From UHGV virus genome UHGV-0174779: a DNA stretch of 64,000 nucleotides. The stretch is one strand, 5' to 3'. Below are positions 7,763 to 38,707 of this stretch, piece after piece. A program made the position numbers and the translations under genes. Source of the DNA: a virus. The first letter of the stretch is position 1, and each line of letters begins with the position of its first letter. Below the pieces are notes generated by a model. It saw only the letters and a list, made by a program, of their open reading frames with translations. It was not told the DNA's origin and did not search any database.

Positions 7763-7787
7763 CATGTTAGGTAGTAAGAAATATATT
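7759..7787 (+). promoter_or_regulatory. sigma70-type promoter (TTGACA-17-TATATT)
   Basis: Consensus -35 and near-consensus -10 about 40 nt upstream of ATG 7829. Confidence 0.5.
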
Positions 7788-7828
7788 TATCTCATTGAAA
7801 CGAAGCATACCAACTAAAGGAATCAATC

Positions 7829-8308
7829 ATGAATAAGGCAAACTTTGTAATCGGTGCTCTGGTATTAACCTTCGGTAGCATGGCTATCGCTGACAAGATT
7901 GCTAGTGCTCCAGTTGCTCAAGCTGCTGTAGTCATGAGTGATGCTGCTGACACCTTCGTTAGCAACGCCCCTAAAGGTTGGCTGGTTTGTAAAGGATTGG
8001 ATTCAGATAATGTCACTACGTTGATGAAAGTTAAATTATCTAACGTAACCAATCGTGGCATGGTATTGTCTACTCGTACACTTGACAACCAGAATAATGA
8101 GGATATTCTGCTTTCCCGTAAAGACAATGACCCAGAGTTGATTACTTTTGGCGATGTGCAGACTATTAAAGGTTCTAAAGTTGTGACTAATCTGGTAACA
8201 TATGGCACAATGCAAGAAACCATGTTAGCCACCTCTGTCTACAGTGGGGAAGATAACAGTATTTGGACTTTCCGCTTTCAGATGGGTGATTGTGTTAAAG
8301 CAAAATAA
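7829..8308 (+). CDS. secreted protein with signal peptide (159 aa)
   Basis: N-terminal signal peptide (MNKANFVIGALVLTFGSMAIA); own promoter and leader. Confidence 0.6.
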   Translation: MNKANFVIGALVLTFGSMAIADKIASAPVAQAAVVMSDAADTFVSNAPKGWLVCKGLDSDNVTTLMKVKLSNVTNRGMVLSTRTLDNQNNEDILLSRKDNDPELITFGDVQTIKGSKVVTNLVTYGTMQETMLATSVYSGEDNSIWTFRFQMGDCVKAK

Positions 8309-8311
8309 TAG

Positions 8312-8340
8312 TTGACACGGTTATAGATTGGCAGTATTGT
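8312..8340 (+). promoter_or_regulatory. sigma70-type promoter (TTGACA-17-TATTGT)
   Basis: Leader downstream is homologous to that of gene 7829 (ACTAAAGGAATCAA). Confidence 0.45.
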
Positions 8341-8375
8341 TACCTCATTAAGACAACACTAAAGGAATCAAGACA

Positions 8376-8705
8376 ATGAAAACTCTGATTGCATCTGCTC
8401 TTTTATCTGTAGCTGTTCTCTCAACTGTAGGATGCTCTTCTTCTCCGCGTCCCAATGGTTGGTGTGCTCTGGAAGTTGAGGGCACTTGTGTGATGCGTTG
8501 GAAAGATGGTGTTAAGGTTCCTGCTGGTGAGATTGATATGAAGTACGAAGGTGCTAGTTGCTCTAATGGTGGATCTGTTGATGAGAAGGCCTATCGTGAG
8601 CGTGATATGAAAACACAAGCTGATTGGAAGAAGTCAGACTTTATTTCCCGAGCAACTCATTGCGGTGGCAACACTTCCACTAAGGGTAAAGAATGGGACA
8701 TTTAA
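8376..8705 (+). CDS. lipoprotein (109 aa), paralog of 16350-16646
   Basis: Signal peptide with lipobox (LSTVGC); shares RPxGWCA..VEGxCV.RW..G.KVP.GEIDM...GA.CSN motif with ORF 16350-16646. Confidence 0.65.
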   Translation: MKTLIASALLSVAVLSTVGCSSSPRPNGWCALEVEGTCVMRWKDGVKVPAGEIDMKYEGASCSNGGSVDEKAYRERDMKTQADWKKSDFISRATHCGGNTSTKGKEWDI

Positions 8706-8811
8706 AAAGAAGGGTTTGTAATACCAGTTCTACTTTGTTATCTTTGATTTTCACGGTGATTGCTACTGCAATTGCTTACTATTTCTTAATTGTTTTGGGA
8801 GTGTGATACCA

Positions 8812-9075
8812 ATGGGTAATGAAACTATTGCGCTGATTGATACGCATAATTACGGTGGCGTTACGCTCTCCTTTGATGAGTCAATCGACTATGCTTATTT
8901 GTCTTTTCTTACGAAAGGTGAGATAAAAACCATTAGCTTTCCTGCGGTCTATTTAGTGCAAGATTATCTCACTATTGGGAAGTATTTAGCTCAACGTGGG
9001 ATTCTTCTATCGCTGGAAGAAGTGGAACAGATCAGTATAGCATTTTTTGTCGAGGGTAGTAATGAAGAAGAGTGA
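8812..9075 (+). CDS. hypothetical protein (87 aa, C-terminus EGSNEEE)
   Basis: ATG with GGAGTG RBS. Confidence 0.4.
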   Translation: MGNETIALIDTHNYGGVTLSFDESIDYAYLSFLTKGEIKTISFPAVYLVQDYLTIGKYLAQRGILLSLEEVEQISIAFFVEGSNEEE

Positions 9076-9169
9076 TTATTTTTGGCGGTGCTTATTCGTT
9101 GTTACAGTGGCGTTATTTGTCTCTGATATGCTTTATTCTTACGTTTTATAACTATAGGTGACTATTATC

Positions 9170-9535
9170 ATGGGTGTTATCAAGTTTGTAGTGAAAGTGA
9201 TTGTAGGCTTCTTTCTGGTTGTTCTTCTGTTAGGTGTCCTGCTGTCGTCTATTGGTAGTGTAAAGGCTGCAACGTTCACGCCTGATACTATCGAAGGCTT
9301 GCAATGCACCTATCTTATAGAAGATTATGAAACTGGTAAAAAGTCACCTAAGGTTATTATTTTACATGTAGAAGATTTTGAGAGTGTCATAACCTACGAC
9401 AAGTCTATCCACATGACTAACGAAACCACTGGTAAGCAAATTACGGTCGATCACTTGCTGCGCTCGTCGTTGACGCTCTTTGATGAATCTATGAACGAAA
9501 TAAAATCCGGTAATGGTCAGTGTGTAAATCCATAG
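9170..9535 (+). CDS. membrane protein (121 aa)
   Basis: N-terminal TM helix; RBS AGGTGA. Confidence 0.5.
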   Translation: MGVIKFVVKVIVGFFLVVLLLGVLLSSIGSVKAATFTPDTIEGLQCTYLIEDYETGKKSPKVIILHVEDFESVITYDKSIHMTNETTGKQITVDHLLRSSLTLFDESMNEIKSGNGQCVNP

Positions 9536-9611
9536 GCTTAATCTTTCTGCTGTATTGTGCCGTGGTCATGCCTATGGTCATAATTTATCTGATTCTCTAA
9601 TCCTTCCTGTG

Positions 9612-9635
9612 AGCCTCCTAGTGAGGCTTTTCTCA
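9612..9635 (+). terminator. rho-independent terminator (AGCCTC-CTAGT-GAGGCT-TTTTC)
   Basis: Perfect 6-bp stem plus T-run after gene 9170-9535. Confidence 0.45.
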
Positions 9636-9894
9636 TTTCTAAGGCGATTGTATGCCTTACCCTCTTTTAGCTCGTTGTGATGCGTCTGAGAGCGTCAAAT
9701 ATTGCTTTACAAGCCTGTTCTAGTGTGTTATTCGCGTGCGCGTTCCTTTATATCTCTCCTCCCTGAAAATAATCAAAATAAAGGTTGCTTTCCTTCCTCA
9801 CTTCCTCTATTATCTATTCATCGGTTAAGCAGTACCAAGTAGACAACCTGATAAGTCGTACGAAAAACAGGTAATCGATAAGAAATAAAAAAGA

Positions 9895-9922
9895 TTGACA
9901 AGATGCTCAAACGTAGTAAGAT
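9895..9922 (+). promoter_or_regulatory. strong sigma70-type early promoter P1 (TTGACA-16-TAAGAT) with A-rich UP element
   Basis: Read from sequence; A-rich tract immediately upstream. Confidence 0.55.
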
Positions 9923-10041
9923 GGGTATCAGAAACAAAGCAAGGAAACTTGCAAATGCTCTTTAAAAACTTATCGTCCTGCCCTTTCGCAAAGATTCGCG
10001 CGAGATAAGGGAAAAGAATAAAAAGAGGACGATAAAAAGAG

Positions 10042-10069
10042 TTGACAAGGTAATCTAATAAGTTATAAT
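10042..10069 (+). promoter_or_regulatory. strong sigma70-type early promoter P2 (TTGACA-16-TATAAT)
   Basis: Perfect consensus hexamers, A-rich UP element. Confidence 0.7.
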
Positions 10070-10217
10070 GATTACCAGTTAGCAGATACACCGCTAACAA
10101 GTTCTTTAACAATATGACCTGATTCACTAGCCGAGCCGCTTAGTAATCCTCAATCAAATATAGCTGATTGATATATCCTCCCAATAAAGGGAACGACGAA
10201 AAAGATTAAAAAGATGG

Positions 10218-10246
10218 TTGACAGGCGCTGAGAGATAGGTCATAAT
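10218..10246 (+). promoter_or_regulatory. strong sigma70-type early promoter P3 (TTGACA-17-CATAAT)
   Basis: Consensus -35, 17-bp spacer, near-consensus -10, A-rich UP element. Confidence 0.65.
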
Positions 10247-11169
10247 GAGCACATTAGCTAAGGGAAACATTCCGAAGCGAAGCGAGACAACGGCTAACAG
10301 TTGCATAGCGTGAGTAAACATGCTGATAGATTTACCGCTCTTTAACAATTTAAACGTTCTTCTATATCGGTTGAACATGCTTGAAGATAATAACCATCGG
10401 AAAGTATGCCAGATAAAACGGTGTAAGATTCTCTAAACTATCAGAGGAAACAATCTTGCAATCCCTTACTGGAAACGTCACCACTGACAAACGGATTCAC
10501 TGAGTGCACGCAGAGACTTAAGCTAATCGCCCACGGTTAAGGGTAGCGGCGGTCATCGCTAACAAGGCGCTACAGTGAAAGAAGTTAATCAGGGTAGACA
10601 AGTCCGACGAATACAAGCTCAATTGCGAGCGGCGGGGAGCGGTTAAAAAGTGGCAAATTGCTATTTAACAATAAGGCTTAGTGTGAACGTTTACGATGTG
10701 AACGGCTTGAGATTCATCTTATGATGAAAGTACATAGTCGGTTTATGTAGTAAACTTGCCGAAAGATATAAAACGTCGGAACATTAGACGGTCAATGACT
10801 CTTTCGCAATAGTATCCCGTAGTGGGCGATGACTAGCGATTGAGAGTTGATACAAAAGGATAGGCGAGAGCGAAAACAAAGTAGACGATATTGCCGACGG
10901 TTACAATAAATGTAACTAATTAGAGTCGGACGCACTGCCTTATTGTGATGATTGATCATCGCTATCAGGTCGGCTTAGTTTATAGCGACTAATTAAAGAT
11001 ACCAGATGAAACATCACGGATAAGGAGGCGGAAAGGTTAACTCCTGATAAGACCGCCTCACTTACCTGTAACTACTTAAAAAGTGAGTGGTTAGAGTTAA
11101 GTTAATAGTGACTTAAGCAAGCTCATAGAGAGCGGGGCATAGTGCCCTTACAATTGAAAGGTGAATATC

Positions 11170-12069
11170 ATGGCTAAAATCTTTACTCTGGTTAACGAAT
11201 CTGGTTTTAACGCTCTGGCTAACAACATCCGCAGCAACAACGCAGCGATTAAGCAAGACGTATCTAACTTCCTGTTAGGGCACTTACAGCACTTCCGCAG
11301 CAACGGTAAGAAACTGGACGTATTACAAGCGGCGGTTGATTTCCTGTTAACTGAACGCTTCCGCGATATGGATGTTATTGCTACCGCAATCACTTTCTTA
11401 ACCCCTATCAAGTTTAACACCGATGCGGCAAATGGTCGTAAAAAGTGGATTAATCTGGAAGGTGAAGCGAAAGCTAAAGAAGATGCGAAAGAAGCGCAGA
11501 TTAAAACCAAAATGGAGCAAAACCGCGCTCGCTGGTCAAACGCTTTCGAAAACTTTGCTTTAGGTCGTGCAATTGAAGTTGATAATCCTAACTTCTACAA
11601 AGGCTGTAACGACAACGTGGCGGCACACCTGCAAATCCCGGCGAAAAACAAGGAAGATTTTAACCAAGATATTTACGCTTTGGTTGAACGCTTGAACGCA
11701 ATCCGCATTGAAGCCAAGTTGCTGGCTGATGAACGCAACGGCGCAACTAGTGATAACACTATTGCCTTAAGTGAAGAAGTTGGGAAGGTTAAGAAGTCTT
11801 TCGACTCACTCATCAAGAAAGTAACGGCCTCAACTGTAGCGATCTCTGATGACTATCTGATGAACGCATCAAGCAAGGAACTGGAATCACTTGATTCATA
11901 TGCTGATGAAATGGAAAAGGCTGTTGCAGCTATGCAGGAGAAGTTAGAAAGTCTGCGCGGTCGTATCTCTTCAACGGTTGCTACCCGTACCGAACAAGCT
12001 GCGAAAGAAGAAGAGGAAGAAGTATTGCGTAAAGCGGCTGAAATTATGGCAGCACGTCAGGCAGCATAA
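11170..12069 (+). CDS. early protein of unknown function (299 aa)
   Basis: First long ORF downstream of tandem promoters; RBS GAAAGG; followed by strong terminator. Confidence 0.7.
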   Translation: MAKIFTLVNESGFNALANNIRSNNAAIKQDVSNFLLGHLQHFRSNGKKLDVLQAAVDFLLTERFRDMDVIATAITFLTPIKFNTDAANGRKKWINLEGEAKAKEDAKEAQIKTKMEQNRARWSNAFENFALGRAIEVDNPNFYKGCNDNVAAHLQIPAKNKEDFNQDIYALVERLNAIRIEAKLLADERNGATSDNTIALSEEVGKVKKSFDSLIKKVTASTVAISDDYLMNASSKELESLDSYADEMEKAVAAMQEKLESLRGRISSTVATRTEQAAKEEEEEVLRKAAEIMAARQAA

Positions 12070-12092
12070 GTAAGACAATTTGAATAAACATG

Positions 12093-12127
12093 AGGCGCTA
12101 TCTTAACGGGTAGCGCCTTTTCTTTTA
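12093..12127 (+). terminator. rho-independent terminator (8-bp stem AGGCGCTA/TAGCGCCT plus TTTCTTTTAT)
   Basis: Read from sequence. Confidence 0.6.
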
Positions 12128-12171
12128 TCAGTGCATTGATTCAGTGTGCTAATAAAAGAATCTAATCAAAG

Positions 12172-12399
12172 GTGACGATTATGTTAACTACGCATACCAC
12201 GATCTACAGAAACCTTCGCAACGGTCAGCATTACCGCCTATCTAAAAAGTATGGCGTTGAATGTAAATGTATACTTACTGGTGAATGGTATCCGTCTCCA
12301 ATGAAGATTGAGACGTTAGAACATGAAGCGATTAGTTATACCATCACGCAAGAAACAACGTTAGGCCGTGTGCTACGTAAGTTAGGATTGAGAAAATGA
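12172..12399 (+). CDS. hypothetical protein (75 aa)
   Basis: ORF with GGTGA RBS. Confidence 0.4.
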   Translation: MTIMLTTHTTIYRNLRNGQHYRLSKKYGVECKCILTGEWYPSPMKIETLEHEAISYTITQETTLGRVLRKLGLRK

Positions 12400-12620
12400 T
12401 CATTAGTGAAGGCTTTGGTAAATGTCCTATTTGTAAGAAACATCGCAGCACCGGAAACCATCGCAAATGTAGTAGGATTCTCCAGAAACGCCATAACCAT
12501 GAAGAAGCAAAGAAGGTTTACGAAAACCAACGCTTAGAAGAGGTTAGAGCAATGGCAATTAAAGCATCATACAAACACTCCCACCGCATTGAATATATGA
12601 AAAGGTATCAAGCATCATGA
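12396..12620 (+). CDS. small Cys/His-rich protein (74 aa)
   Basis: CPICKK...H..H motif; overlapping stop/start with neighbours. Confidence 0.4.
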   Translation: MIISEGFGKCPICKKHRSTGNHRKCSRILQKRHNHEEAKKVYENQRLEEVRAMAIKASYKHSHRIEYMKRYQAS

Positions 12621-12823
12621 TTAACATTAAACCTCTTAGCAAGACCCCTATCGCCCTTCTTGGCCGTCGTGTTTCATACCGATACTTAAATAAAGGTAAG
12701 GCAATGACAGGAGTAGTTGCAACGATTAGTACACAAGGAAAGAAATTTCTCAACATGTCCGTTAAGATGGATGATGGTACAGTTTTAACACGTAGTTGGA
12801 AGTCGTTCGGTTTACTCAATTAA
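12617..12823 (+). CDS. hypothetical protein (68 aa)
   Basis: ORF, ATGA overlap with upstream gene. Confidence 0.4.
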   Translation: MINIKPLSKTPIALLGRRVSYRYLNKGKAMTGVVATISTQGKKFLNMSVKMDDGTVLTRSWKSFGLLN

Positions 12824-12892
12824 GTTGTTTGTTCAAGCCTATCGCCTTGATGGGCTTGCCCGATATAACTTATCACTGAAAGGAATAAGATT

Positions 12893-13336
12893 GTGGCTAA
12901 ATCAAAAATCAGCATGAAGGGCGGTCGTTGTTTTGCTATCTCTGAATTAGAGAAAGAGAAACCAAAGGCAACCAATCACGTCAGTAAGCGTAGTTTAAAA
13001 CGTCGTGCTGCAAAGGCTGAGGCTGAATCCCATACTCCTTCCAGTGTGGCAAAACGTGTAGGCCATCGTGTTCATCGTGCTGATGCGTTATTGTTAGCCG
13101 ATCATAAACGTTCTTTATTACAGAGCGGGGGAGCTAAAACAGAAGAGGAGAAGAAGTTAGAAATCTTCTGTAATGGTCGCACCCGTGGTAAGCAGAAGTT
13201 TAAGGGTAGCACGAAAGACCCTCAAGCATTCCCTAAGACAAGCCAGTGCGCACCTGATGTTTTCTACGCAGATAGTAAACACAAGTGGGGAGTTGAAAAA
13301 TACATTGACCCCATCAAAGAGGCAAGGGTTAAATAG
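12893..13336 (+). CDS. basic protein of unknown function (147 aa, GTG start)
   Basis: ORF with AAAGGA RBS; K/R-rich. Confidence 0.45.
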   Translation: MAKSKISMKGGRCFAISELEKEKPKATNHVSKRSLKRRAAKAEAESHTPSSVAKRVGHRVHRADALLLADHKRSLLQSGGAKTEEEKKLEIFCNGRTRGKQKFKGSTKDPQAFPKTSQCAPDVFYADSKHKWGVEKYIDPIKEARVK

Positions 13337-13416
13337 TAGGACTATAGCCCCCTCTTTTAGTACTATGACGCTCTCTCTGTCGCGTAGTGCCCTCTCCCCA
13401 TTTGAAGCTTCCGCAT

Positions 13417-13439
13417 AGCCGCCTTTGAGCGGCTTTTTG
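13417..13439 (+). terminator. rho-independent terminator (AGCCGC-CTTTGA-GCGGCT-TTTTT)
   Basis: Read from sequence. Confidence 0.55.
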
Positions 13440-13501
13440 CGTTGCTGTAAGTGCATTTGCGAGTGTATTTATAGCAACGGTCATGTGTTGCTTTCAGGTT
13501 T

Positions 13502-13528
13502 GCCCCGGCTACGGCTGGGGCTTTTTTG
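13502..13528 (+). terminator. rho-independent terminator (GCCCC..GGGGC-TTTTTT)
   Basis: GC-rich hairpin plus T6. Confidence 0.5.
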
Positions 13529-13576
13529 TACCCGTAGAATAGGAGGTAGCAAGTTCTGATAACAACGGCCCAGCTA

Positions 13577-13966
13577 ATGTTGACATTGACTATTTATTAT
13601 GAGGCAGGGAATCAGCCAACCGCATGTAAAGCTATGGTTGCGGATACCGTGATAAATAGAATGGCCCAACGAAAACTGACCGCTGAACAGGTGATAAGAC
13701 AAAAGAACCAGTTTGAGTGGATTCCGGTACTATTAAAACAGGAGAAACCTTATAAACGTTATGTAAAGCTGATTCGTGATAAAAATCCGATGACTAAGCA
13801 AGCCATTGGAGAAAGCGAGCGGCTAGCTAAACGTGCCCTTAAGAAGAATTATGTTCCGCTGTACAGTGGGACTTACTTTCAGAGTAAGAGCGAAGGGGTG
13901 CCAAAATGGTATGCCAATCCTATGTATTGTGGTGATTTAGTGTTCGATAACAGCTCTAGGGAATAA
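13577..13966 (+). CDS. SleB/CwlJ-family cell-wall hydrolase-like protein
   Basis: IYYEAGNQP...VINR motif resembles the Hydrolase_2 (SleB) signature AEARGEP..VA.V.LNR; no signal peptide evident. Confidence 0.45.
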   Translation: MLTLTIYYEAGNQPTACKAMVADTVINRMAQRKLTAEQVIRQKNQFEWIPVLLKQEKPYKRYVKLIRDKNPMTKQAIGESERLAKRALKKNYVPLYSGTYFQSKSEGVPKWYANPMYCGDLVFDNSSRE

Positions 13967-14164
13967 TCACTGGTGCCAGATTTGACAAACTAAATTCCTT
14001 TATAAACCAACCACTTAGTAAATTTATTGAAAAAGATGGTAGTATTCTGGGACTATGGTAATGCTCTGTATATAGACCCTTTGAAAATTTCTTAGAAAAT
14101 AAGTTTACTAAATATAACTTACTTAAATAATATTACTTTTAATCTCTGATAAAGGGTAAATAAT

Positions 14165-14467
14165 ATGACTTTAGAGATATATAAATTCCTTTTTGTAAGC
14201 TGTTTAACTATCAGCGTTATAGGATTTATTGTTCTAAGAAACAAAGCAGCAAGCTGGGAGAGAAAGTATAAATCTTTGATTCAAGTAGATGAGATGTATA
14301 ATGAGAAAGTTAAAGTAACACTCAACGATCTTATTATGCAAGTAGAGGACAGAAACAAGCGTCTTCAGAATCTTAACCATGAAGTATTACGCCTTGCTCG
14401 TGCTAATGAAGACTTGCGAGTAGCTATTGCTAAGCAGCAGGAGCTCTCTGACGAGCTTAAAGTATAA
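14165..14467 (+). CDS. membrane-anchored coiled-coil protein (100 aa)
   Basis: N-terminal TM helix then heptad-like region. Confidence 0.45.
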   Translation: MTLEIYKFLFVSCLTISVIGFIVLRNKAASWERKYKSLIQVDEMYNEKVKVTLNDLIMQVEDRNKRLQNLNHEVLRLARANEDLRVAIAKQQELSDELKV

Positions 14468-14778
14468 AAAACTAAGTAACATCAACCTATAGCCCTTGTG
14501 TTTATCAGAGGGCTATGTGAGGGTGTTCCTCATTAACTTATTAATTCAGGCATATGCCACACCGCTAGGGAGAGCTTGCTCAAACATCCGGTGCTAGACT
14601 AAAACCTGTTAATTTTCGATATACTTTCTGATATGTAGGGGTACATATTGGTTTGGGATTTAGGAGACTCTCTAGGGGTAGGGAGTCTTCACTAGTTTGT
14701 AGAGTAATTGGCTCTATAGTGAGAGTCATCCGCTATATCAACTGGCAATAATGCCTCCACTAATAGAGAGAGATAGGT

Positions 14779-14919
14779 ATGAAAGTATCAACCAAACGTA
14801 TGAACCGCCCTGAACGTATGGATGCAGTAGCTAATGGTGCTCTGAAACTGGAAGGCTTCTGGCTTCATGCAATGTCAGCCATCCGTAACAAGCAAGGCAA
14901 TTGGACCTATAACAGTTAA
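14779..14919 (+). CDS. small protein (46 aa)
   Basis: ATG with GAGATAGGT RBS; below track size cutoff; followed by terminator. Confidence 0.3.
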   Translation: MKVSTKRMNRPERMDAVANGALKLEGFWLHAMSAIRNKQGNWTYNS

Positions 14920-14928
14920 TAAATAAAA

Positions 14929-14957
14929 GGCTGCCTTCGGGTGGCCTTTGTTGTTTT
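14929..14957 (+). terminator. hairpin with UUCG loop plus T-rich run
   Basis: GGCTGCC-TTCG-GGTGGCC then TTTGTTGTTT. Confidence 0.4.
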
Positions 14958-15001
14958 AATTAAGGGACAGCTCTTACTTAAACTAACAAGAGGAAGCTAA
15001 A

Positions 15002-15178
15002 ATGTCTAAGCAAACAATCAAGAATACGCAAGCTGGTTACTCTTATGTTAACTCTCCTTGCTGTGGTGCTCGTGTTAATCTGGTTAAGGAAGAGGTTCAT
15101 ATCATTCAGCGTGGCGCTACTGTTGTTCGTTCATGCTGTGTCTGTGGTAATGACATTTTTATCAAAGGTAAAGTATGA
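15002..15178 (+). CDS. small zinc-ribbon-like protein (58 aa)
   Basis: CCGAR...CCVCG cysteine pairs; RBS GAGGAAG; stop overlaps next start. Confidence 0.35.
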   Translation: MSKQTIKNTQAGYSYVNSPCCGARVNLVKEEVHIIQRGATVVRSCCVCGNDIFIKGKV

Positions 15179-15447
15179 AAAAGCTTATAATCCTAGTGTG
15201 TCTTATCTCTGCATTTGGCTGTAAGGAAAGGGAGAGTATCTACAAAAGTGACTATGAAAGTTCTGGGTTTTGGTACGGAGGTTTCAGGTCAGAGCCACAT
15301 ACAGCAGATAATATGCTATTCTCCGTAAAAAGAAGCTCACAAGAACTTTCTTACTATGCATGTGCCTCTTTAGCTGAAGCTCATACCAAAACATATCCGG
15401 ACGGTGGTAGAATATATTGTCTATATCTAGGAAAATGGGAAAACTAA
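15175..15447 (+). CDS. lipoprotein (90 aa)
   Basis: Signal peptide with lipobox (ISAFGC). Confidence 0.45.
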   Translation: MKKLIILVCLISAFGCKERESIYKSDYESSGFWYGGFRSEPHTADNMLFSVKRSSQELSYYACASLAEAHTKTYPDGGRIYCLYLGKWEN

Positions 15448-15449
15448 TC

Positions 15450-15701
15450 ATGAAAAACTTCCAAGCTGCACCAATAACTAAAGTGATCGCAGTTAATGAT
15501 GTGATGATGACTGTTCCTCTGAACACTCGTCACATTGCGATTGATAAGATGGGCTATGTGTGGGCTTGGAAGATTAAGCCCTCGTACAATGAACTCTTTG
15601 ATGAGTTTGTTTGTACTGGCACATATAGCCCTACGTTCTTGGGTTTGTTTGGAGAGTTTGAAGGTCAGTATAAAATCATCACTCTCCCTGCTTGTGCTTG
15701 A
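15450..15701 (+). CDS. hypothetical protein (83 aa)
   Basis: ATG just after upstream stop. Confidence 0.4.
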   Translation: MKNFQAAPITKVIAVNDVMMTVPLNTRHIAIDKMGYVWAWKIKPSYNELFDEFVCTGTYSPTFLGLFGEFEGQYKIITLPACA

Positions 15702-15710
15702 GGATTAACG

Positions 15711-15812
15711 AGAGCTCTTAGTGAGGGTGTATCTTCCCCGCCTTCTAAGCGGTCGTTAAAGAAGTAAATGGAGTATGCAGGTTCGAGTCCTGTCACCCTC
15801 GCTAAGAGCTCT
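15711..15812 (+). other. long hairpin (about 18-bp stem) enclosing a tRNA-like T-arm (GGTTCGAGTCC); possible RNase III site or degenerate tRNA-like element
   Basis: AGAGCTCTTAGTGAGGGTG pairs with CACCCTCGCTAAGAGCTCT; internal GCAGG-TTCGAGT-CCTGT resembles a T stem-loop; a UCU anticodon-like loop (CCGC-CTTCTAA-GCGG) is present but I could not fit a canonical cloverleaf. Confidence 0.3.
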
Positions 15813-15821
15813 TGAGGTATT

Positions 15822-16337
15822 ATGAAGCTAGATCTAAGTAAAGCAGTTGTTGATAAAGGTGTTGGTTATTTGTATGTGTACCAACCAACACACCCTATGG
15901 CCAATAAAGCTGGAAAGGTGTATGTTCATAGATATGTTGCTCAAAATTTCTACGGTGTCGAACTGAACTCTGACCTAGTGGTTCATCACAAGGATGAGAA
16001 TAAGTTAAACAACGAACCATCTAATTTAGAAATCATGACTTATGAGGAGCATAGCAGGCACCATCATGGGGCTGTCATGGAAGAAAGGTTATGTTCTTTT
16101 TGTGGAGAGATTTACCTTGTTTCAGAGAATAGCAACCAAAGGTTTTGCTCACAGCTTTGTGCCAAATTAGATAGCAGACGGTTTGAAATAACAAAAGAAT
16201 CTCTTCAGTCTTTAATAGACATTTACCCCGTGTATGTAGTAGGGAGGTTACTGAGTGTTAGTGATTCGGCTGTCCATAAGAGATGTAGGATTCTTGGTGT
16301 TGTTAAAAAGCCGAAAGGTTTTTGGTTAACTAAATAG
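15822..16337 (+). CDS. HNH endonuclease
   Basis: HNH motif (VVHHKDENKLNNEPSNLEIMTYEEH). Confidence 0.6.
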   Translation: MKLDLSKAVVDKGVGYLYVYQPTHPMANKAGKVYVHRYVAQNFYGVELNSDLVVHHKDENKLNNEPSNLEIMTYEEHSRHHHGAVMEERLCSFCGEIYLVSENSNQRFCSQLCAKLDSRRFEITKESLQSLIDIYPVYVVGRLLSVSDSAVHKRCRILGVVKKPKGFWLTK

Positions 16338-16349
16338 AATGAGGTAGTT

Positions 16350-16646
16350 ATGAGTTGGGGTGGTGTAATATCCTTAATCTGTATCTTCCTTGTCTGTGTG
16401 GTCCTTACAGGCTGCGTACAGAGCCGTCCTGATGGATGGTGTGCAGTAGCAGTGGAAGGTGTTTGTGTTTCTCGCTGGCATAAGGGTGAGAAGGTTCCTT
16501 CTGGTGAAATTGATATGCGCTGGAACGGAGCAACCTGCTCTAATGCTAACCCGTCTATCAACGAAGAGAAATCTACGCCAGACAATGTTGTGATTGACAC
16601 AGCGTTGTGGTGTGGTGGCTCAGTAAAAACAACCGGTAAGGAGTGA
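16350..16646 (+). CDS. lipoprotein (98 aa), paralog of 8376-8705
   Basis: Lipobox (LTGC) and shared motifs with 8376-8705. Confidence 0.6.
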   Translation: MSWGGVISLICIFLVCVVLTGCVQSRPDGWCAVAVEGVCVSRWHKGEKVPSGEIDMRWNGATCSNANPSINEEKSTPDNVVIDTALWCGGSVKTTGKE

Positions 16647-16650
16647 TAAT

Positions 16651-16893
16651 ATGACAGCTCATTATTGGAACACAAAGAAGCTTCTTGAAGAGATGGCTGG
16701 AAGTAGCAGAGTACAGCTAATATCTATGCTTCGAAGGGATGCTCGCTCTTTACGCTTCCAAGTAAAGATTGGTAACTTCAGTGATGGTCTTTATTACACA
16801 TTGAAGGAAAGGATTAAGAAGACATACTTCATTATATATGGTTGCCCTAAGGGCGATTTTACTTATGACTTTTGGAATACTGACTACGATTAA
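16651..16893 (+). CDS. hypothetical protein (80 aa)
   Basis: ORF, tight spacing. Confidence 0.4.
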   Translation: MTAHYWNTKKLLEEMAGSSRVQLISMLRRDARSLRFQVKIGNFSDGLYYTLKERIKKTYFIIYGCPKGDFTYDFWNTDYD

Positions 16894-16902
16894 GGAGTTA
16901 TT

Positions 16903-17124
16903 ATGTTGTTAGAAGCTGAGCAATCATTGCCAGTAGTCCCTCTGTCCTCACTTCCTATCGGAAGTGCTTTTAGACATGGGGAGGTTTTTTGGATTAAGGG
17001 TAATCAAGTGGTTGGAGGGTATATCACCTGCATCAACATTGGCAACGGTGTTGTTGATGGTTTTCGTCCAGCCGCTGAAGTCACTCCTCAAGCTGATGCA
17101 AAGGTTGTAGGTTTAGTTTATTAG
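16903..17124 (+). CDS. hypothetical protein (73 aa)
   Basis: ORF with GGAG RBS. Confidence 0.4.
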   Translation: MLLEAEQSLPVVPLSSLPIGSAFRHGEVFWIKGNQVVGGYITCINIGNGVVDGFRPAAEVTPQADAKVVGLVY

Positions 17125-17441
17125 AGAGTTACCATGATCAAATCGTGACTATCGTGAAGGATTCTTACGAGAGTCCTTTGAGATAGGACTTCAGATCTCC
17201 TATCAAACTAACATTCACGTAACTAGCCCATAAGGGGCGTTACCCTTTAATAACCCAGCCCACTAAGGGGGGCGGGAGTTTAGTGCTGGATTAGCATAAC
17301 GCTTATTCCTACAAAGGCAACCGATTGTTAGATCTTACATGCAAACTTAATTAATAGGATATGGGAGGATTCGTCCCCTCCCCCTATTTTATTGAATCTT
17401 TATCTAAGCAAGTCTTATATAAATGTTTAATAGGAGGTTAT

Positions 17442-17753
17442 ATGAAACCCGCACAAATCCAATGGACTCCTTGGCAGATTGATTTGCTGAAGAAGCTTAT
17501 CAGTGAACATTCTGTTGAAGAAACGGCTGTCATGATGGGAACAACAGCACAGATTATTAATGCTGCGTGTTCTCGTTTTAAAATCTCTCGTGCTAAAGCT
17601 CGATTGAAGTGGTCTGAAGAAGAAGATCAGTTTGTTATCCGTAATGCCGGGTTCATGTCTATTCAGAGAATGGCTGACATGCTCGGTAGAAGTTATGCTG
17701 CTGTACAGAACAGGGCATGTATGCACCTTAATATTAGCCTCAAACTTAAATAG
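17442..17753 (+). CDS. tandem Myb/SANT-like helix-turn-helix DNA-binding protein (103 aa)
   Basis: Two W-containing HTH-like repeats (WTPWQIDLL..., WSEEEDQFV...); strong RBS TAGGAGG. Confidence 0.45.
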   Translation: MKPAQIQWTPWQIDLLKKLISEHSVEETAVMMGTTAQIINAACSRFKISRAKARLKWSEEEDQFVIRNAGFMSIQRMADMLGRSYAAVQNRACMHLNISLKLK

Positions 17754-17761
17754 GAATCAAT

Positions 17762-18007
17762 GTGAAGATCATTCCCAAGATTAAAGATAATACTGTTTCC
17801 TTGTCTACTATCATTCCCGGAAACCCATTCGTAATTCAACGTGGCTCAGCATCTCCTCAATATTACATGAGAGTTGAAAACACTTCTAGCAATATTAGTG
17901 TAGTTAACGGTTGGATTACTGTGGTAAATCTTCTCACAGGGGTCTTATGTGCTAAAGGTGCTGATACTCAGGTGGAAATGATTCGCATGTCAGTGGTTCA
18001 GGAGTAG
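17762..18007 (+). CDS. hypothetical protein (81 aa, GTG start)
   Basis: ORF only. Confidence 0.35.
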   Translation: MKIIPKIKDNTVSLSTIIPGNPFVIQRGSASPQYYMRVENTSSNISVVNGWITVVNLLTGVLCAKGADTQVEMIRMSVVQE

Positions 18008-18158
18008 CGTAATTATTCGGTTCGTAAACGGACAGAAAAAGGTAGCTAAATAAGCCCTCTTCTCTCCTCCTTTTAGTACTATGACGCCTCTTTTTAGGCG
18101 GCCCAATTTGCGTAGGGAATTCCCTCTACGCAGCCATAATTTTTAAGGAATTTCCCCT

Positions 18159-18392
18159 ATGTCTAAAGTAAGTGCAATTGATGCAATCCGTCAACCGTTC
18201 CAGTTCCAATCCAAATCAACCCAAACCTTCAGCGAATCTAAGCAAATTCGCTTGGGTGGCACAGAGAAAACTGTGTTCGATCTGGCTAAAAACAAGAGCG
18301 TTACCGTAGTTGATGGTGGCACTCTGGTTAACGTTTCTCATCGCATCCGCACTGGCAAAACTGCCAAAGACCGTACCAAGAAAGGTGAGTAA
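18159..18392 (+). CDS. hypothetical protein (77 aa)
   Basis: ORF only. Confidence 0.45.
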   Translation: MSKVSAIDAIRQPFQFQSKSTQTFSESKQIRLGGTEKTVFDLAKNKSVTVVDGGTLVNVSHRIRTGKTAKDRTKKGE

Positions 18393-18574
18393 CACCTATA
18401 GCCTTCTTCGGAGGGCTATGTGAGTTATTCTGACTCAACTAACCTAATCTTAATATATTTCCCGTATGGGGCCGATGCTAGGGCGAGGAGTATTCCTCAA
18501 ACATCCGTCGGATAGATATTTTAAGAGCAGGTTATCCACAGATATTGGGTAATATCTTTTTGTGTTTAAAGCTT

Positions 18575-18600
18575 GACTCTTTTCGGAGAGTCCTTTTTTA
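18575..18600 (+). terminator. rho-independent terminator (GACTCT-TTTCGG-AGAGTC-CTTTTTT)
   Basis: Perfect stem plus T-run. Confidence 0.55.
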
Positions 18601-18618
18601 AATTCAAAGAGAGGAAAT

Positions 18619-18771
18619 ATGTCTAAATTAGATTTAAAACTGCTAGCAGCAGCGGTAGTGATTTGTGCACTAGCACTGGTAACGCAGAGAACATCTGGAT
18701 TTATTCAGTGTTTCTTTTCTGGGCAATCCACTTATCAGTGGATTATTGACGAGTGTAAACAACAGGAGTAA
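18619..18771 (+). CDS. small membrane protein (50 aa)
   Basis: ATG with GAGAGGAAAT RBS; hydrophobic helix. Confidence 0.3.
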   Translation: MSKLDLKLLAAAVVICALALVTQRTSGFIQCFFSGQSTYQWIIDECKQQE

Positions 18772-18773
18772 GC

Positions 18774-19136
18774 ATGAATACACGTCCCATTAAGGGCAAC
18801 GTTAATATTGAAACTCTGAACAAGGTTGCATCAAACCTCGGTGGTATGTCCAACGAAGAACTTGAGCAAGAGCTTGCTTGGATTGCAAATGGTATTACGG
18901 TAGCGAAAAGTAAGATTGCTCGTGAGCAAAGTAATATGAAAGCTCACAAGTATGTTATACGTCGCGCAAACACGTTACCAGAGCGGGTTGTACATCTTGC
19001 CCGCCAGAACTACGAAAGTGCTAAAGAAGCTCTGCTTGAAGCTGAGTTTCAGAAGCACCAATTTATGAACAACTACAGAAACTTCCGAGATATTCTTTAT
19101 ATCCGTAAGTCAATTGAGTTGATTAAAAACCAATAG
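18774..19136 (+). CDS. hypothetical protein (120 aa)
   Basis: RBS AGGAG. Confidence 0.5.
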   Translation: MNTRPIKGNVNIETLNKVASNLGGMSNEELEQELAWIANGITVAKSKIAREQSNMKAHKYVIRRANTLPERVVHLARQNYESAKEALLEAEFQKHQFMNNYRNFRDILYIRKSIELIKNQ

Positions 19137-19147
19137 AGGTTGGTACA

Positions 19148-20347
19148 ATGTTTCCAGTAACATTAGAAGATACTGAAGGTAATGTTTTAACGGTTTATCC
19201 TCCTTGCTATGGATTCCTTCAGCTCCGCAACTATAACGGTGGTGCTGATGAAGGTGATGATGGCAAATACGATGAATATTTTGAACCTAACACCTATGAG
19301 GCAACTCGTGGGTGGAATATGCACGTTAAGGTTTGGAGCGAAGCATCTAATATTCGTAGTGCAGATGGGCAAGACTGCCTGTTAAGTGACGAGATGGATA
19401 TGTGCGATATTAAACATATCTGGAACTCTGGAACCCACTTAGATATGTTAGGTTTTCTGAGTTATCGTGACAAAAAGCCTGTAACCAAAGGGTTGGGTTG
19501 GGGTAATATTGATCAGGAAGGTGAGCTTAAAAATAACATTGAACGTTGGAATGACAAAAACCCTGAGTATCAAACCACACCTCGTGCTGTACTGGAAGCT
19601 ATGGAAGCATTTGTGGACAAAGACCGTCCCTCCTGTTTACGCTGGCACGAAAAAGGTTTTATGGGTGTAGCAACTGAGAATGTCCATGCTGACCGTTGTC
19701 TGTTCTATTTGATGTTAGACCGAACCTTCTATTGTGAAGATGAAGAGAGTCAGGTTGAAACCTTCCTTCATAAATGGTTGGTTGAAGGCTGGACAATCCT
19801 TCAGGCCTATGTTTACTCACGAATGGTTAGCACTTACACTAACCTCTTAGGAGAAACAAAAACAACTCTGGTTGGTAATGATTGGGATGCTTGTATCTTC
19901 CCAGCATCACTGTTTACAGTTGGTATGGCTGATAAGTATACTGAAGCATTTAAAGTGCCTTGGCGTCAGCAGTCGTACAATCATGGTTGTGGTCACTTCC
20001 GTGATGAAGATTTTAAATGGATTAGTTATGAAAATAACGAAACATCAGATTTACGAGTTAATAACTCAATGTTCTTGCCGGTGATGCACCCCGATTTAGT
20101 AAAGAGTGGATCAGAAACACTTGAATGTGACAACCTTCTGGTTAACTTTGTTCGTCGGGTATCTAAAGGTGAAAGAACAGCTGACAAATTACTCTACGGT
20201 AATCGTATCGAGACTAAGGATATGTTCAACATCTATAACATTATTCAGCGATTTAGTAGTGGAACTCTGGACCAAAGTTCGGAGTATTCAGTGGTTCCAT
20301 CCTCTGAATGGGATGGTATTATGAGCGGATTATTTTTAGGAAAATAA
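19148..20347 (+). CDS. protein of unknown function (399 aa), first gene of amidoligase cluster
   Basis: RBS AGAGGT; tightly linked to cluster. Confidence 0.65.
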   Translation: MFPVTLEDTEGNVLTVYPPCYGFLQLRNYNGGADEGDDGKYDEYFEPNTYEATRGWNMHVKVWSEASNIRSADGQDCLLSDEMDMCDIKHIWNSGTHLDMLGFLSYRDKKPVTKGLGWGNIDQEGELKNNIERWNDKNPEYQTTPRAVLEAMEAFVDKDRPSCLRWHEKGFMGVATENVHADRCLFYLMLDRTFYCEDEESQVETFLHKWLVEGWTILQAYVYSRMVSTYTNLLGETKTTLVGNDWDACIFPASLFTVGMADKYTEAFKVPWRQQSYNHGCGHFRDEDFKWISYENNETSDLRVNNSMFLPVMHPDLVKSGSETLECDNLLVNFVRRVSKGERTADKLLYGNRIETKDMFNIYNIIQRFSSGTLDQSSEYSVVPSSEWDGIMSGLFLGK

Positions 20348-20357
20348 AAGGTTAGTT

Positions 20358-21329
20358 ATGTCAATCTCCACAACGATCGTACCTCTGAATCTTCAACAAG
20401 ATTTAGGGGAACAGAAGTTCTTAGGTCGTGGGTGCTTCGGTATTCACAACTACATGCAAGGCCAAGTCATAAATGACATTAATGGCGACTCTGTAATGGA
20501 AGAAGGGATTCATAAACGCTTCAACCGTGATATCAACTTGCAATTGGAGATGTTGAATTACTGGACTCACTCTTTTCATGGTCTCGCTGCATCTGACATT
20601 GAAAAGAACTTGGTTGAAACAGCAGACATTATGAACTCTATGTCTTGCTATCGTGATGTATTTACGATCACTTCAGCGAATAGTGTTGCTGTCAACCTCC
20701 GTGAGCATCCAGCAGATCAAATCTTCACAGGACTTATGCTCTTCCGTAGTATTCTGGAAGGGCAGTATCGTGGAATGGATTTCCTATCAGAAGGAATTGA
20801 AGACAGGGAAGAGTGGCTGAAGCGTAAACGCATCGGAATTGCTCTAGTGTTAGCTGGGTTAGGTCGAGACTTCTTCGGTGGATGGTCTCAACGAGGAACC
20901 TCCAATGGGAGTGGAGAGAACACATCCATTGTTATTAACAACAATATGTCAGCAGCAGCATTCCTTCCTTTGGTTGTAGACTCTGATGAATACACGAAAC
21001 AAGTGTGGGTTCAAAACCCCTTCGGTGTTGGTGACAACAAGGACGGTTATGTTCGCAACCATAACCAAGATGCCTTACGAAGATTTGCTCGTGCTAAAGA
21101 TCAAGACCCGGACGAGTATGAAACAATGTCAGAGTGGTTAAGACTCTGGTCCAGCTGTCATGGTCACAAACGTGAAACAATAGACAATAAGTTGGAAAAC
21201 ATTACAGTACAAAACTTTACAGCCCGATTGATTCAGCGTACTGGTCCAACTTCTGGCCTTACGACTGAAGAAGTTGGTAACACAATCTCATCTCTCTTTT
21301 CTGAACTAGTGGAGTATTACAATGACTAA
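20358..21329 (+). CDS. protein of unknown function (323 aa), amidoligase cluster
   Basis: RBS AAAGG; overlaps next gene. Confidence 0.65.
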   Translation: MSISTTIVPLNLQQDLGEQKFLGRGCFGIHNYMQGQVINDINGDSVMEEGIHKRFNRDINLQLEMLNYWTHSFHGLAASDIEKNLVETADIMNSMSCYRDVFTITSANSVAVNLREHPADQIFTGLMLFRSILEGQYRGMDFLSEGIEDREEWLKRKRIGIALVLAGLGRDFFGGWSQRGTSNGSGENTSIVINNNMSAAAFLPLVVDSDEYTKQVWVQNPFGVGDNKDGYVRNHNQDALRRFARAKDQDPDEYETMSEWLRLWSSCHGHKRETIDNKLENITVQNFTARLIQRTGPTSGLTTEEVGNTISSLFSELVEYYND

Positions 21330-27608: not shown

Positions 27609-27614
27609 GGATAT

Positions 27615-28045: not shown

Positions 28046-28114
28046 TCTGCTTTAGCCTCTTCGAAAGAGGGGGCTAGTTCGGATAAACTAAACAAACCAA
28101 CAAAGGTATAGATA

Positions 28115-28534: not shown

Positions 28535-28535
28535 T

Positions 28536-38702: not shown

Positions 38703-38707
38703 TATGA

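What the first reader, a model, noticed from the sequence alone, without database searches (positions are those of the whole stretch)
14487..18520. Two homologous approximately 130-bp intergenic elements with covarying hairpin
Regions 14487-14600 and 18393-18520 share blocks (CCTATAGCC...GAGGGCTATGTGAG, GCTAGGG.GAG, CTCAAACATCCG). Both start with a hairpin whose stem is conserved (ATAGCC/GGCTAT) while the loop differs, which is the pattern expected for a functional RNA structure (3' stabiliser, processing site or small RNA).
Basis: seen in the sequence. Interest (0 to 1): 0.5.

Follow-up and report, generated by a model that had tools for sequence, protein, structure and literature searches.

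The report
Conserved structured RNA in phage early operon
Two intergenic stretches in this phiEco32-like coliphage are copies of an undescribed, strongly folded RNA module that recurs in three families of enterobacterial phages and probably decides what happens to the long early transcript at that point, though its exact job is unproven.

Summary
The window is a phiEco32-like Kuravirus. Elements A (14475-14690) and B (18388-18599) are paralogous over about 215 nt, not 130.

Both fold on the sense strand into two abutting hairpins (H1, H2), an AU-rich spacer, a tetraloop hairpin (H3) and a hairpin (H4) with a near-invariant internal loop (GCUAGGGN / RAACAUCCG). In B a long-range helix closes H3 and H4 into a three-way junction.

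Across 36 distinct sequences, 95% of pair cells are paired and 29 of 42 pairs change on both sides. About 100 Kuravirus and Suseptimavirus genomes carry both copies. Salmonella 7-11-like phages carry one copy. A distant Citrovirus-like contig has the same architecture with unrelated stem sequences.

There is no match in Rfam, HK022 put, tRNA searches or E. coli genomes, and no conserved promoter.

The elements lie inside one roughly 28-kb early operon driven by sigma70 promoters that are followed by rrn-type boxA. B is always followed by an intrinsic terminator. That terminator is the last internal one before the conserved enzyme block.

Best guess (about 0.3): a factor-recognised checkpoint between read-through and 3' end formation. 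Rivals are a processing/stabiliser site, a released stable RNA, a riboswitch or a ribozyme. It is a new RNA family and its function is open.

The parts
14475..14480 (+). Element A: conserved 5' edge AGUAAC. It gives an in-frame second stop (TAA 14477-14479) after ORF 14165-14467. It is the 5' strand of the alternative pairing P0.
   Evidence: Nearly invariant in alignments. Homology between phages breaks exactly here. P0 appears in the MFE folds.
14488..14517 (+). Element A: hairpin H1 (UAUAGCCCUU / GAGGGCUAUG, 10-nt loop).
   Evidence: Helix 1 is 98.1% paired.
14518..14532 (+). Element A: hairpin H2 (UGAGG-GUGUU-CCUCA). It abuts H1 with no linker.
   Evidence: Helix 2 has 4 pairs with changes on both sides.
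14549..14558 (+). Element A: hairpin H3 (GGC-AUAU-GCC).
   Evidence: Helix 4 is 100% paired, with GC/CG swaps.
14559..14594 (+). Element A: hairpin H4. Outer stem is 14560-14564 with 14589-14593. Conserved internal loop is CUAGGGA (14565-14571) and AAACAUC (14582-14588). Inner hairpin is GAG-CUUG-CUC (14572-14581).
   Evidence: Outer stem is 100% paired with 4 of 6 pairs changed on both sides.
14614..14658 (+). Element A: long hairpin H5. Outer stem is UUUCGA / UUGGGA with three invariant G.U pairs. Inner stem has 10 bp. The GGGG loop is at 14638-14641.
14663..14690 (+). Element A: hairpin H6 with loop GGGG (14675-14678) closed by conserved U-A and A-U pairs (the invariant block UAGGGGUA). It aligns with B's terminator hairpin but has no U tract.
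   Evidence: Four pairs change on both sides.
14926..14959 (+). First intrinsic-terminator-like site downstream of A, after the 46-aa ORF 14779-14919.
   Evidence: It belongs to repeat family D5.
18388..18393 (+). Element B: conserved 5' edge AGUAAC. It contains the stop codon TAA (18390-18392) of ORF 18159-18392.
18397..18420 (+). Element B: hairpin H1 (10 bp including two U.G pairs, UUCG loop at 18407-18410).
18421..18437 (+). Element B: hairpin H2 (UGAGUUA-UUC-UGACUCA).
   Evidence: There is a compensatory U-A to C-G change in Suseptimavirus B copies.
18440..18453 (+). Element B: 5' strand of the long-range helix LR (UAACCU..UCUUAA).
   Evidence: Helix 3 is 91.3% paired, with 11 of 12 pairs changed on both sides.
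18461..18470 (+). Element B: hairpin H3 (CCC-GUAU-GGG).
18472..18511 (+). Element B: hairpin H4. Outer stem is CCGAUG / CGUCGG. Internal loop is CUAGGGC (18478-18484) and AAACAUC (18499-18505). The inner hairpin (18485-18498) has a hypervariable apical loop.
18521..18534 (+). Element B: 3' strand of LR (UUAAGA..AGGUUA). It closes H3 and H4 into a three-way junction.
18540..18557 (+). Element B: hairpin H5 (AGAUAUU-GGGU-AAUAUCU). It is absent from 7-11-type copies.
18575..18599 (+). Element B: intrinsic terminator (stem 18575-18592, UUCG loop, U6 at 18594-18599). It is conserved behind every B copy.
   Evidence: It is annotated 'terminator' in the SU7 and 7-11 records.

Best explanation
SHOWN. 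A and B are two paralogous copies of an undescribed structured RNA module. It is transcribed on the sense strand as part of the long early operon. The module consists of a stop codon in AGUAAC, two abutting hairpins H1 and H2, an AU-rich spacer, hairpin H3, and hairpin H4 with a near-invariant internal loop. In B a 12-bp long-range helix closes H3 and H4 into a three-way junction. A hairpin with a GGGR loop (H5) follows. Last comes an intrinsic terminator in B, or a terminator-derived hairpin without a U tract (H6) in A.

INFERRED. The invariant H3/H4 surface is recognised by a factor that all these phages meet. Most likely this is enterobacterial host machinery such as the elongating, boxA/Nus-modified RNA polymerase or an RNA-binding protein. 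A fast-evolving small phage protein is also possible.

Recognition would set the balance between ending the transcript at the following hairpin and reading through it. B and its terminator would then act as the checkpoint between the variable block of small host-takeover genes and the conserved 20-kb enzyme block. The logic resembles lambda nut or HK022 put placed ahead of tR1/tL1.

Confidence that this is a functional sense-strand structured RNA is above 0.9. Confidence in this particular mechanism is about 0.3.
For: Structure: the core of 14 pairs is 96.7% paired versus 78.9% in shuffles and 33-46% when slid. The full model of 42 pairs is 95.4% paired, and 29 pairs change on both sides. The 3' hairpins of A are 98.5% paired.

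Strand: G.U makes up 7.2% of pair cells, and H5 has invariant G.U pairs.

Operon context: strong sigma70 promoters on the + strand lie only at 7759-10246. None is convincing in 12000-21000. The SU10 analysis predicts no promoter for 26 kb across both elements. In 7-11 only right-end early promoters were validated.

Linkage to termination: every B copy, from Kuravirus to Moazamivirus, is followed by a canonical terminator, although the downstream gene differs. A's H6 aligns with that terminator. A is followed by the terminator at 14926. B's terminator is the last internal one before the operon-end terminator at 38706.

Recognition surface: the internal-loop nucleotides are invariant in A, B and 7-11 copies that were found by BLAST, while the apical loops vary freely.

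Host rather than phage partner: the element occurs in a Citrovirus-like contig but not in its two closest relatives. No protein is shared with Kuravirus or 7-11 in the 8 kb held.
Against: No experiment bears on it.

No mutually exclusive antiterminator/terminator pairing was found by eye in B or 7-11 copies.

A constitutive antiterminator directly before a terminator would make that terminator pointless, so an unidentified regulator must be assumed.

Three terminator-like sites (12092, 13417, 13502) lie upstream of A without any such element. The boxA copies in the leader may already account for antitermination.

A has no terminator of its own.

There is no similarity to put and no boxA inside the elements.
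Confidence: 0.3

Rival explanations
1. Processing and stabilisation site. A host endonuclease cuts the polycistronic early RNA within the module. Candidates are RNase III on the LR/H4 coaxial stack or RNase E in the AU-rich spacer. H1 and H2 stay as a protective 3' cap on the upstream message. This matches the RNase III sites of the T7 early region.
For: The module sits directly after a stop codon between cistrons of one long transcript. H1 and H2 are stable hairpins whose sequence is free to change completely in L035. LR plus H4 gives an irregular duplex of T7-site style. No phage protein partner is apparent. From my own knowledge, T7 early RNase III sites are mutually homologous, carry conserved internal loops and follow stop codons.
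Against: Only 2 of about 50 intercistronic junctions have the module. About 14 invariant unpaired nucleotides and near-total sequence conservation of all 210 nt of B exceed what RNase III or RNase E sites need. LR is weak in A and degenerate in phiEco32 A. This model does not explain the terminator linkage.
Confidence: 0.25
2. Stable non-coding RNA acting in trans. The module accumulates early and titrates or base-pairs with a conserved enterobacterial target. B would be a 3'-UTR-derived RNA ending at its own terminator. A would be cut out. The invariant loop nucleotides would serve as seed or binding site.
For: B ends in a terminator with a U6 tail preceded by a U-rich stretch, as in Hfq-type sRNAs. 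Invariant single-stranded blocks with covarying stems are typical of seeds. UAGGG-type motifs recur in the H4 loop and in the H5 and H6 loops. The distribution across unrelated phages sharing enterobacterial hosts fits a host target.
Against: There is no own promoter. A lacks a terminator. No target has been identified. E. coli genomes hold nothing similar, which argues against mimicry of a host RNA at sequence level. Rfam sRNA matches are terminator-only and far below threshold.
Confidence: 0.15
3. Riboswitch-like attenuator. The H3/H4/LR junction is an aptamer for a small molecule or ion, and B's terminator is its expression platform.
For: The arrangement is a three-way junction with invariant junction and loop nucleotides, covarying helices and a terminator 40-60 nt downstream.
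Against: No alternative antiterminator pairing was found. A has no terminator. The downstream genes differ and have unknown function. There is no Rfam hit. The position is 4 and 8 kb into an operon.
Confidence: 0.08
4. New small self-cleaving ribozyme that cuts the early transcript in cis.
For: The core is compact, about 60 nt. It has invariant unpaired nucleotides, covarying helices, several copies per genome, sporadic cross-family distribution and no partner gene. From my own knowledge, this is the usual signature of phage-borne ribozymes.
Against: It does not resemble any known ribozyme class in Rfam, even at E up to 10 on the isolated elements. No cleavage data exist. The prior for a new class is low.
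Confidence: 0.07
5. DNA-level signal (promoter, protein-binding site, replication origin), or merely a recombination linker that shuffles gene cassettes.
For: B has a 9/12 sigma70-like match at 18430-18459. Homology between phages breaks exactly at the 5' edge AGTAAC, with at least 5-6 different upstream genes. Recombination at the element has therefore clearly happened.
Against: Compensatory changes and strand-specific G.U pairs are RNA signatures. The promoter-like hexamers are not conserved in SU7 or 7-11 copies. Only the right-end promoters of 7-11 were validated. Cassette shuffling is better seen as a by-product of a conserved element.
Confidence: 0.04

Closest known systems
HK022 put RNAs (putL, putR)
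   Same: Both have two mutually homologous cis-RNA copies per phage genome in early operons. Both are on the sense strand, have adjacent stem-loops, sit ahead of terminators and need no phage protein.
   Different: There is no sequence or structure similarity: R1 and R2 score at most 8.5 bits on the HK022 immunity region. The present element is about 150-215 nt with a three-way junction, versus about 70 nt with two stems. It lies 4 and 8 kb from the promoters, after other terminators. Its action on RNA polymerase is untested.
Lambda-type nut sites and rrn antitermination signals (boxA plus hairpin)
   Same: Both are RNA signals in an early operon placed before a terminator that separates immediate from delayed genes. 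This operon carries genuine rrn-type boxA copies after its promoters.
   Different: No boxA lies in or beside A or B. The hairpins have no GNRA-like boxB loop. No N-like protein has been identified.
T7/T3 early-region RNase III processing sites
   Same: Both are homologous intercistronic hairpin elements. Both follow stop codons in a long early transcript of a virulent coliphage. Both have a conserved internal loop and could leave a 3' protective hairpin.
   Different: The architecture here is much more elaborate, with five to six helices and a three-way junction, and is far more sequence-constrained. There are only two copies. Cleavage has not been shown.
EAR (eps-associated RNA) processive antiterminator of Bacillales
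   Same: Both are structured RNAs of about 120 nt lying between genes inside a long operon, upstream of internal terminators.
   Different: The hosts and fold differ. There is no Rfam match to any family over either element.
PeSL cassettes of T4-type phages (promoter-early stem-loop)
   Same: Both are repeated intergenic regulatory motifs at the edges of variable small early genes. Homology breaks at the motif, which implies cassette shuffling.
   Different: PeSL is a promoter plus a simple stem-loop acting at DNA or terminator level. The present element has no conserved promoter and has a complex covarying RNA fold. The PeSL comparison rests on my own knowledge and was not tested.

Membership tests
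Any Rfam 15 family (riboswitches, ribozymes, sRNAs, EAR, tRNA-like) | Match to a curated covariance model | tested here: not met
   Nothing overlaps the H1-H4 core at E up to 10, on the 9-kb region or on each isolated element. Only terminator-type sRNA matches appear, far below the gathering scores.
HK022 put RNA | Sequence and structure similarity to putL/putR (about 70 nt, two stem-loops) | tested here: not met
   R2 and R1, run with filters off on HK022 27000-31000, give a best score of 8.5 bits at E about 0.1-0.4, which is noise.
HK022 put RNA | Located just downstream of an early promoter and upstream of the terminators it suppresses | tested here: inconclusive
   The elements are upstream of terminators at 14926 and 18575. 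They are 4.2 and 8.2 kb from the promoters, with terminator-like sites at 12092, 13417 and 13502 in between.
HK022 put RNA | Acts in cis on the RNA polymerase beta' zinc-binding domain to suppress pausing and termination | not testable with these tools
   This needs in vitro transcription or rpoC mutants.
Lambda nut / rrn antiterminator | boxA (GCUCUUUAACAA-like) adjacent to the hairpin | tested here: not met
   boxA matches with 0-1 mismatch lie at 9957-10671 only. None is within either element.
Intrinsic terminator | G+C-containing stem-loop followed directly by a U tract | tested here: met
   This is met for B's 3' hairpin, 18575-18592 plus U6. It is not met for A's H6, whose tail is ACUAGUUUGU, or ACCAGUUGG in phiEco32.
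Transcriptional riboswitch | Conserved aptamer with covarying helices and invariant junction nucleotides | tested here: met
Transcriptional riboswitch | Mutually exclusive antiterminator/terminator pairing linked to the aptamer's closing helix | tested here: inconclusive
   Inspection of B, 7-11 and pSal copies found only 4-5 nt of AGAG/CUCU complementarity, and it does not covary. No formal search was run.
Transcriptional riboswitch | Specific ligand binding | not testable with these tools
   This needs in-line probing.
T7-type RNase III site | Intercistronic position after a stop codon in a polycistronic early RNA | tested here: met
T7-type RNase III site | About 20 bp of irregular duplex with an internal loop, cleaved by RNase III | not testable with these tools
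   LR (12 bp) plus the H4 outer and inner stems (11 bp) could stack. Cleavage needs experiment.
Sigma70 promoter | Conserved -35 and -10 hexamers at proper spacing | tested here: not met
   There is a 9/12 match in B only. The hexamers are not conserved in SU7 or 7-11 copies. In 7-11 only the right-end sigma70 promoters were validated.
tRNA / tmRNA | Cloverleaf detected by ARAGORN or the Rfam tRNA model | tested here: not met
   ARAGORN found no gene in the window. The Rfam tRNA model hits only 15723-15801.

The most novel reading that the evidence does not exclude
The 60-nt H3/H4 core, with its invariant CUAGGGN/RAACAUC internal loop, is a new class of RNA with its own biochemical activity. 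It works with host machinery only. It could be a polymerase-binding antiterminator or pause RNA unrelated to put, or a new self-cleaving ribozyme. It would punctuate Nus/boxA-modified early operons of virulent enterobacterial phages and would move horizontally between phage families.
Probability: 0.15. Interest if true: 0.8.

Novelty: new variant of a known kind. Interest (0 to 1): 0.6.

Why it matters
phiEco32-like phages are a model for how a virulent phage re-programmes host RNA polymerase (gp79, gp36), and several are phage-therapy candidates. Their 26-28 kb early operon has no internal promoters yet contains several intrinsic terminators.

A conserved, covariation-supported RNA at the last of these terminators, together with rrn-type boxA copies behind the early promoters, gives concrete and testable handles on how early transcription is extended, partitioned or processed.

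The core is small, highly constrained and present in three virus families without a partner protein. This is the profile of RNAs that later proved to be ribozymes, aptamers or polymerase-binding RNAs. It is also a well-defined new family for Rfam-type curation.

Tried and rejected
- Rfam on 12-21 kb and on each isolated element: nothing on the core.
- ARAGORN: no gene found.
- Promoter reading of the AU-rich spacer: weak and not conserved.
- boxA inside the element: 'GCUCAAACA' in A only looks like boxA. The CUC is paired and covaries, and B has CCUC.
- Put membership: no similarity.
- Host mimicry: no match in 5,426 E. coli genomes at E up to 10.
- Partner protein: BLASTP of all ORFs of the L035 8-kb stretch against the window, 7-11 and SU7 found only an HNH-like match. 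Pfam and PHROGs on flanking genes were uninformative.
- More distant members: exact-pattern scans of IMG/VR, metagenomes and GTDB genomes gave only Kuravirus-, Suseptimavirus- and 7-11-like copies plus L035. Two probable chance hits (L020, L034) were discarded. BLAST with the L035 element found no further phage. Pecta and CVT22, the relatives of L035, lack it.
- A third degenerate copy in the 240-nt gap 13336-13577: not supported.
- MAFFT-only alignment of the full element misaligns H2 by one column, so covariance-model realignment was used.
- Alternative pairing P0 (the AGUAAC region with the H2 5' strand and loop) is predicted in A, 7-11 and L035 folds. It excludes H2. A double compensatory change in Suseptimavirus B copies favours H2. 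A switch is possible but unproven.
- Literature: Pavlova 2012 and Savalia 2008 are not held. No paper found describes these elements.

Full report
IDENTITY OF THE WINDOW. The 6 kb around the finding matches about 100 Escherichia and Shigella phages of the phiEco32 group (Kuravirus and Suseptimavirus, Gordonclarkvirinae) at 90-93% identity. The window + strand corresponds to the phiEco32 minus strand. The region is the early-gene cluster of small ORFs, phi32_117 to phi32_87.

THE OBSERVATION. The two 12-mers tested occur exactly only at the two sites in 64 kb. The homology is longer than reported. It begins at a conserved AGTAAC (14475 and 18388) and continues through more hairpins to about 14690 and 18599. 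A covariance model built from B-type copies finds exactly two copies in the window: 18388-18537 at 185 bits and 14475-14615 at 46 bits, E 1e-9.

DISTRIBUTION.
- BLAST finds copy A in 99 phage records and copy B in 104.
- B is 95-99% identical in 66 records, which is more conserved than the surrounding genes.
- B is also found, at 69-73% identity, in Salmonella phages 7-11, SE131, pSal-SNUABM-01 and SeKF_80 (Grimontviridae, Moazamivirus).
- Exact-pattern scans of IMG/VR, metagenomes and GTDB genomes added variants of these groups.
- The scans also added one distant copy on a 48.7-kb contig, L035. Its nearest relatives are Erwinia phage Pecta and Citrobacter phage CVT22 (Zobellviridae, Citrovirus).
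- L035 keeps the whole architecture: two hairpins, an AU spacer, CCC-AUAU-GGG, AAUAGCG..CGCUAUU around GCUAGGGCGAGC..GCUCAAACAUCCG, then hairpins with G-rich loops. All stem sequences are different.
- Pecta and CVT22 lack the element. Its distribution there is therefore sporadic, as expected for a horizontally moved module.
- 7-11 has one copy in the 45 kb searched. Kuravirus and Suseptimavirus genomes have two.

STRUCTURE. By RNAalifold, single-sequence folds and covariance-model realignment, the common fold has these parts:
- H1, 9-10 bp.
- H2, 5-10 bp, abutting H1.
- An AU-rich spacer.
- H3, 3 bp with an RUAU loop.
- H4, with a 6-bp outer stem, an internal loop CUAGGGN / RAACAUC, and a 3-5-bp inner stem with a free apical loop.
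- In B and 7-11 copies, the spacer pairs with the sequence 3' of H4 (UAACCU..UCUUAA with UUAAGA..AGGUUA). This closes a three-way junction. In A this helix shrinks to about 6 bp (AUUAAC/GUUAAU) and is degenerate in phiEco32 itself.

On a MAFFT alignment not fitted to any structure, the 14 core pairs are 96.7% paired. Shuffles give 78.9% and slid partners give 33-46%. The covariation score is 0.458 against 0.151 in shuffles.

On the model-fitted alignment of 36 distinct sequences, 42 pairs are 95.4% paired. Of these, 29 pairs have changes on both sides, and the covariation score is 0.332 against 0.111. This alignment leans towards the model.

A's extra hairpins H5 and H6 are 98.5% paired with invariant GGGG loops. 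H6 has four doubly changed pairs.

G.U pairs make up 7.2% of pair cells and are invariant at several positions. This favours the sense strand, because they would be A.C mismatches on the other strand.

An alternative pairing, P0, joins the AGUAAC region to the 5' strand or loop of H2. It appears in folds of A, 7-11 and L035 copies and excludes H2. A double compensatory change in Suseptimavirus B copies supports H2. Whether the two alternate is open.

WHAT IT IS NOT.
- It matches no Rfam family, even at E up to 10 on the isolated elements.
- It is not a tRNA.
- It has no conserved promoter.
- It contains no boxA.
- It has no relative in E. coli genomes.
- It is not similar to the HK022 put region.
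- No paper in the library describes it.

CONTEXT.
- Strong + strand sigma70 promoters lie at 7759, 8082 and 8312, and at 9895, 10042 (12/12) and 10218.
- None is convincing between 12000 and 21000.
- The SU10 paper predicts early promoters only at the equivalent right-end positions. The next one it predicts is 26 kb downstream.
- In 7-11 only the right-end sigma70 promoters were validated.
- A and B therefore lie 4.2 and 8.2 kb into one long early transcript.
- Behind each of the three proximal promoters is an rrn-type boxA: GCTCTTTAACAA exact at 10337, and one mismatch at 9957, 10101 and 10660. A 900-nt untranslated leader follows.
- boxA copies are conserved in the early leaders of SU7, a metagenomic Kuravirus, L035 and Pecta. 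This points to Nus-factor antitermination of the operon.
- Internal + strand terminator-like hairpins cluster at 12092, 13417, 13502, 14926 and 18575.
- After B's terminator there is no convincing one for 20 kb. The next is at 38706, followed by a perfect promoter at 39474.
- B and its terminator thus mark the border between the variable small-ORF region and the conserved enzyme block. The same synteny holds in 7-11, where the gene after the terminator is an endolysin.
- The stop codon of the upstream ORF lies in or next to AGUAAC. Homology between phages breaks exactly there, with at least five or six different upstream sequences. The element has therefore also served as a recombination junction.
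- Flanking proteins are of unknown function.
- No protein is shared between the L035 stretch and Kuravirus or 7-11, apart from an HNH-like match.

MECHANISM. Two things are shown. The element is a conserved, sense-strand, multi-helix RNA with a near-invariant internal loop. B is linked over long evolutionary distance to an intrinsic terminator at a conserved operon boundary.

I infer, with about 0.3 confidence, that the H3/H4 surface is recognised by a factor common to enterobacterial hosts or by a small phage protein. This would set the balance between 3' end formation and read-through at the following hairpin. The logic is that of nut or put ahead of tR1, but the family is not.

The rivals are:
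- A T7-style processing and stabiliser site (0.25).
- A released stable RNA acting in trans (0.15).
- A riboswitch (0.08).
- A new self-cleaving ribozyme (0.07).
- A DNA-level signal (0.04).

Three points count against my first choice. No antiterminator pairing was found. Three upstream terminators lack the element. A has no U tract.

One point counts against simple processing. The whole 210 nt of B is constrained except for two apical loops, which is far more than nuclease sites need.

VERDICT. The finding is real and is a new RNA family. Interest is 0.6.

Noticed in passing
window 9957-9968, 10101-10112, 10337-10348, 10660-10671 (+ strand); also L002 28016-29115, L016 5016-5961, L035 351, L037 335: rrn-type boxA sequences (GCTCTTTAACAA, 0-1 mismatch) sit 35-90 nt downstream of each strong sigma70 early promoter (9895-9922, 10042-10069, 10218-10246). 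They are conserved in the early leaders of related and unrelated enterobacterial phages. This suggests Nus-factor antitermination of the early operon. I found no mention of this in the papers read.
   Followed up: partly
window 10250-11160: There is an untranslated leader of about 900 nt between the last early promoter and the first long ORF (11161-12069). It has no Rfam match and its content is unexplored.
   Followed up: partly
window 15709-15815: A tRNA-like gene lies at 15723-15801 (anticodon UCU, annotated tRNA-Arg in relatives). It scores only 30.2 bits in Rfam and ARAGORN misses it. It has a tiny D arm and a 20-nt insertion before the T arm. It is embedded in a long flanking stem, GAGAGCUCUUAG...CUAAGAGCUCUUG, which may be a processing helix.
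   Followed up: no
window 14451-14481: A sub-threshold match to the preQ1-I riboswitch tail (UAUAAAAAACUAAG; 18.7 bits against a gathering score of 39) lies at the end of ORF 14165-14467, just before element A. It is probably chance.
   Followed up: no
window 14475 and 18388; loci: Sequence homology between phages breaks exactly at (A/G)AGT(A/G)AC. Different upstream genes are joined to the element at the same point and use its TAA as their stop. The elements are mosaic junctions for cassette exchange.
   Followed up: partly
window 18490-18493 and the homologous positions in relatives: The apical tetraloop of the H4 inner hairpin differs in almost every lineage (GUAU, ACAC, AUAC, AUAU, ACAG, GUAA, AUAA, GUGU). 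The rest of element B is nearly invariant among Kuraviruses.
   Followed up: no
window 12092-12129, 13417-13440, 13502-13527, 14926-14959: Several good intrinsic terminators lie inside the early operon upstream of or between the elements, with no promoter after them. They imply substantial read-through.
   Followed up: partly
window 8448-8568 and 16425-16545: A 121-nt direct repeat at 70% identity lies between the promoter-proximal region and the A-B interval. It may reflect paralogous small genes.
   Followed up: no
L035 1978-5668: Many small early ORFs of the Citrovirus-like contig end in the same acidic tail, (E/D)EENE. They appear to form a paralogous family of unknown function.
   Followed up: no
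L015 421-561 (Salmonella phage SeKF_80): A 46-aa CDS is annotated on the opposite strand, right across the element. It is almost certainly a spurious gene call over a structured RNA.
   Followed up: no
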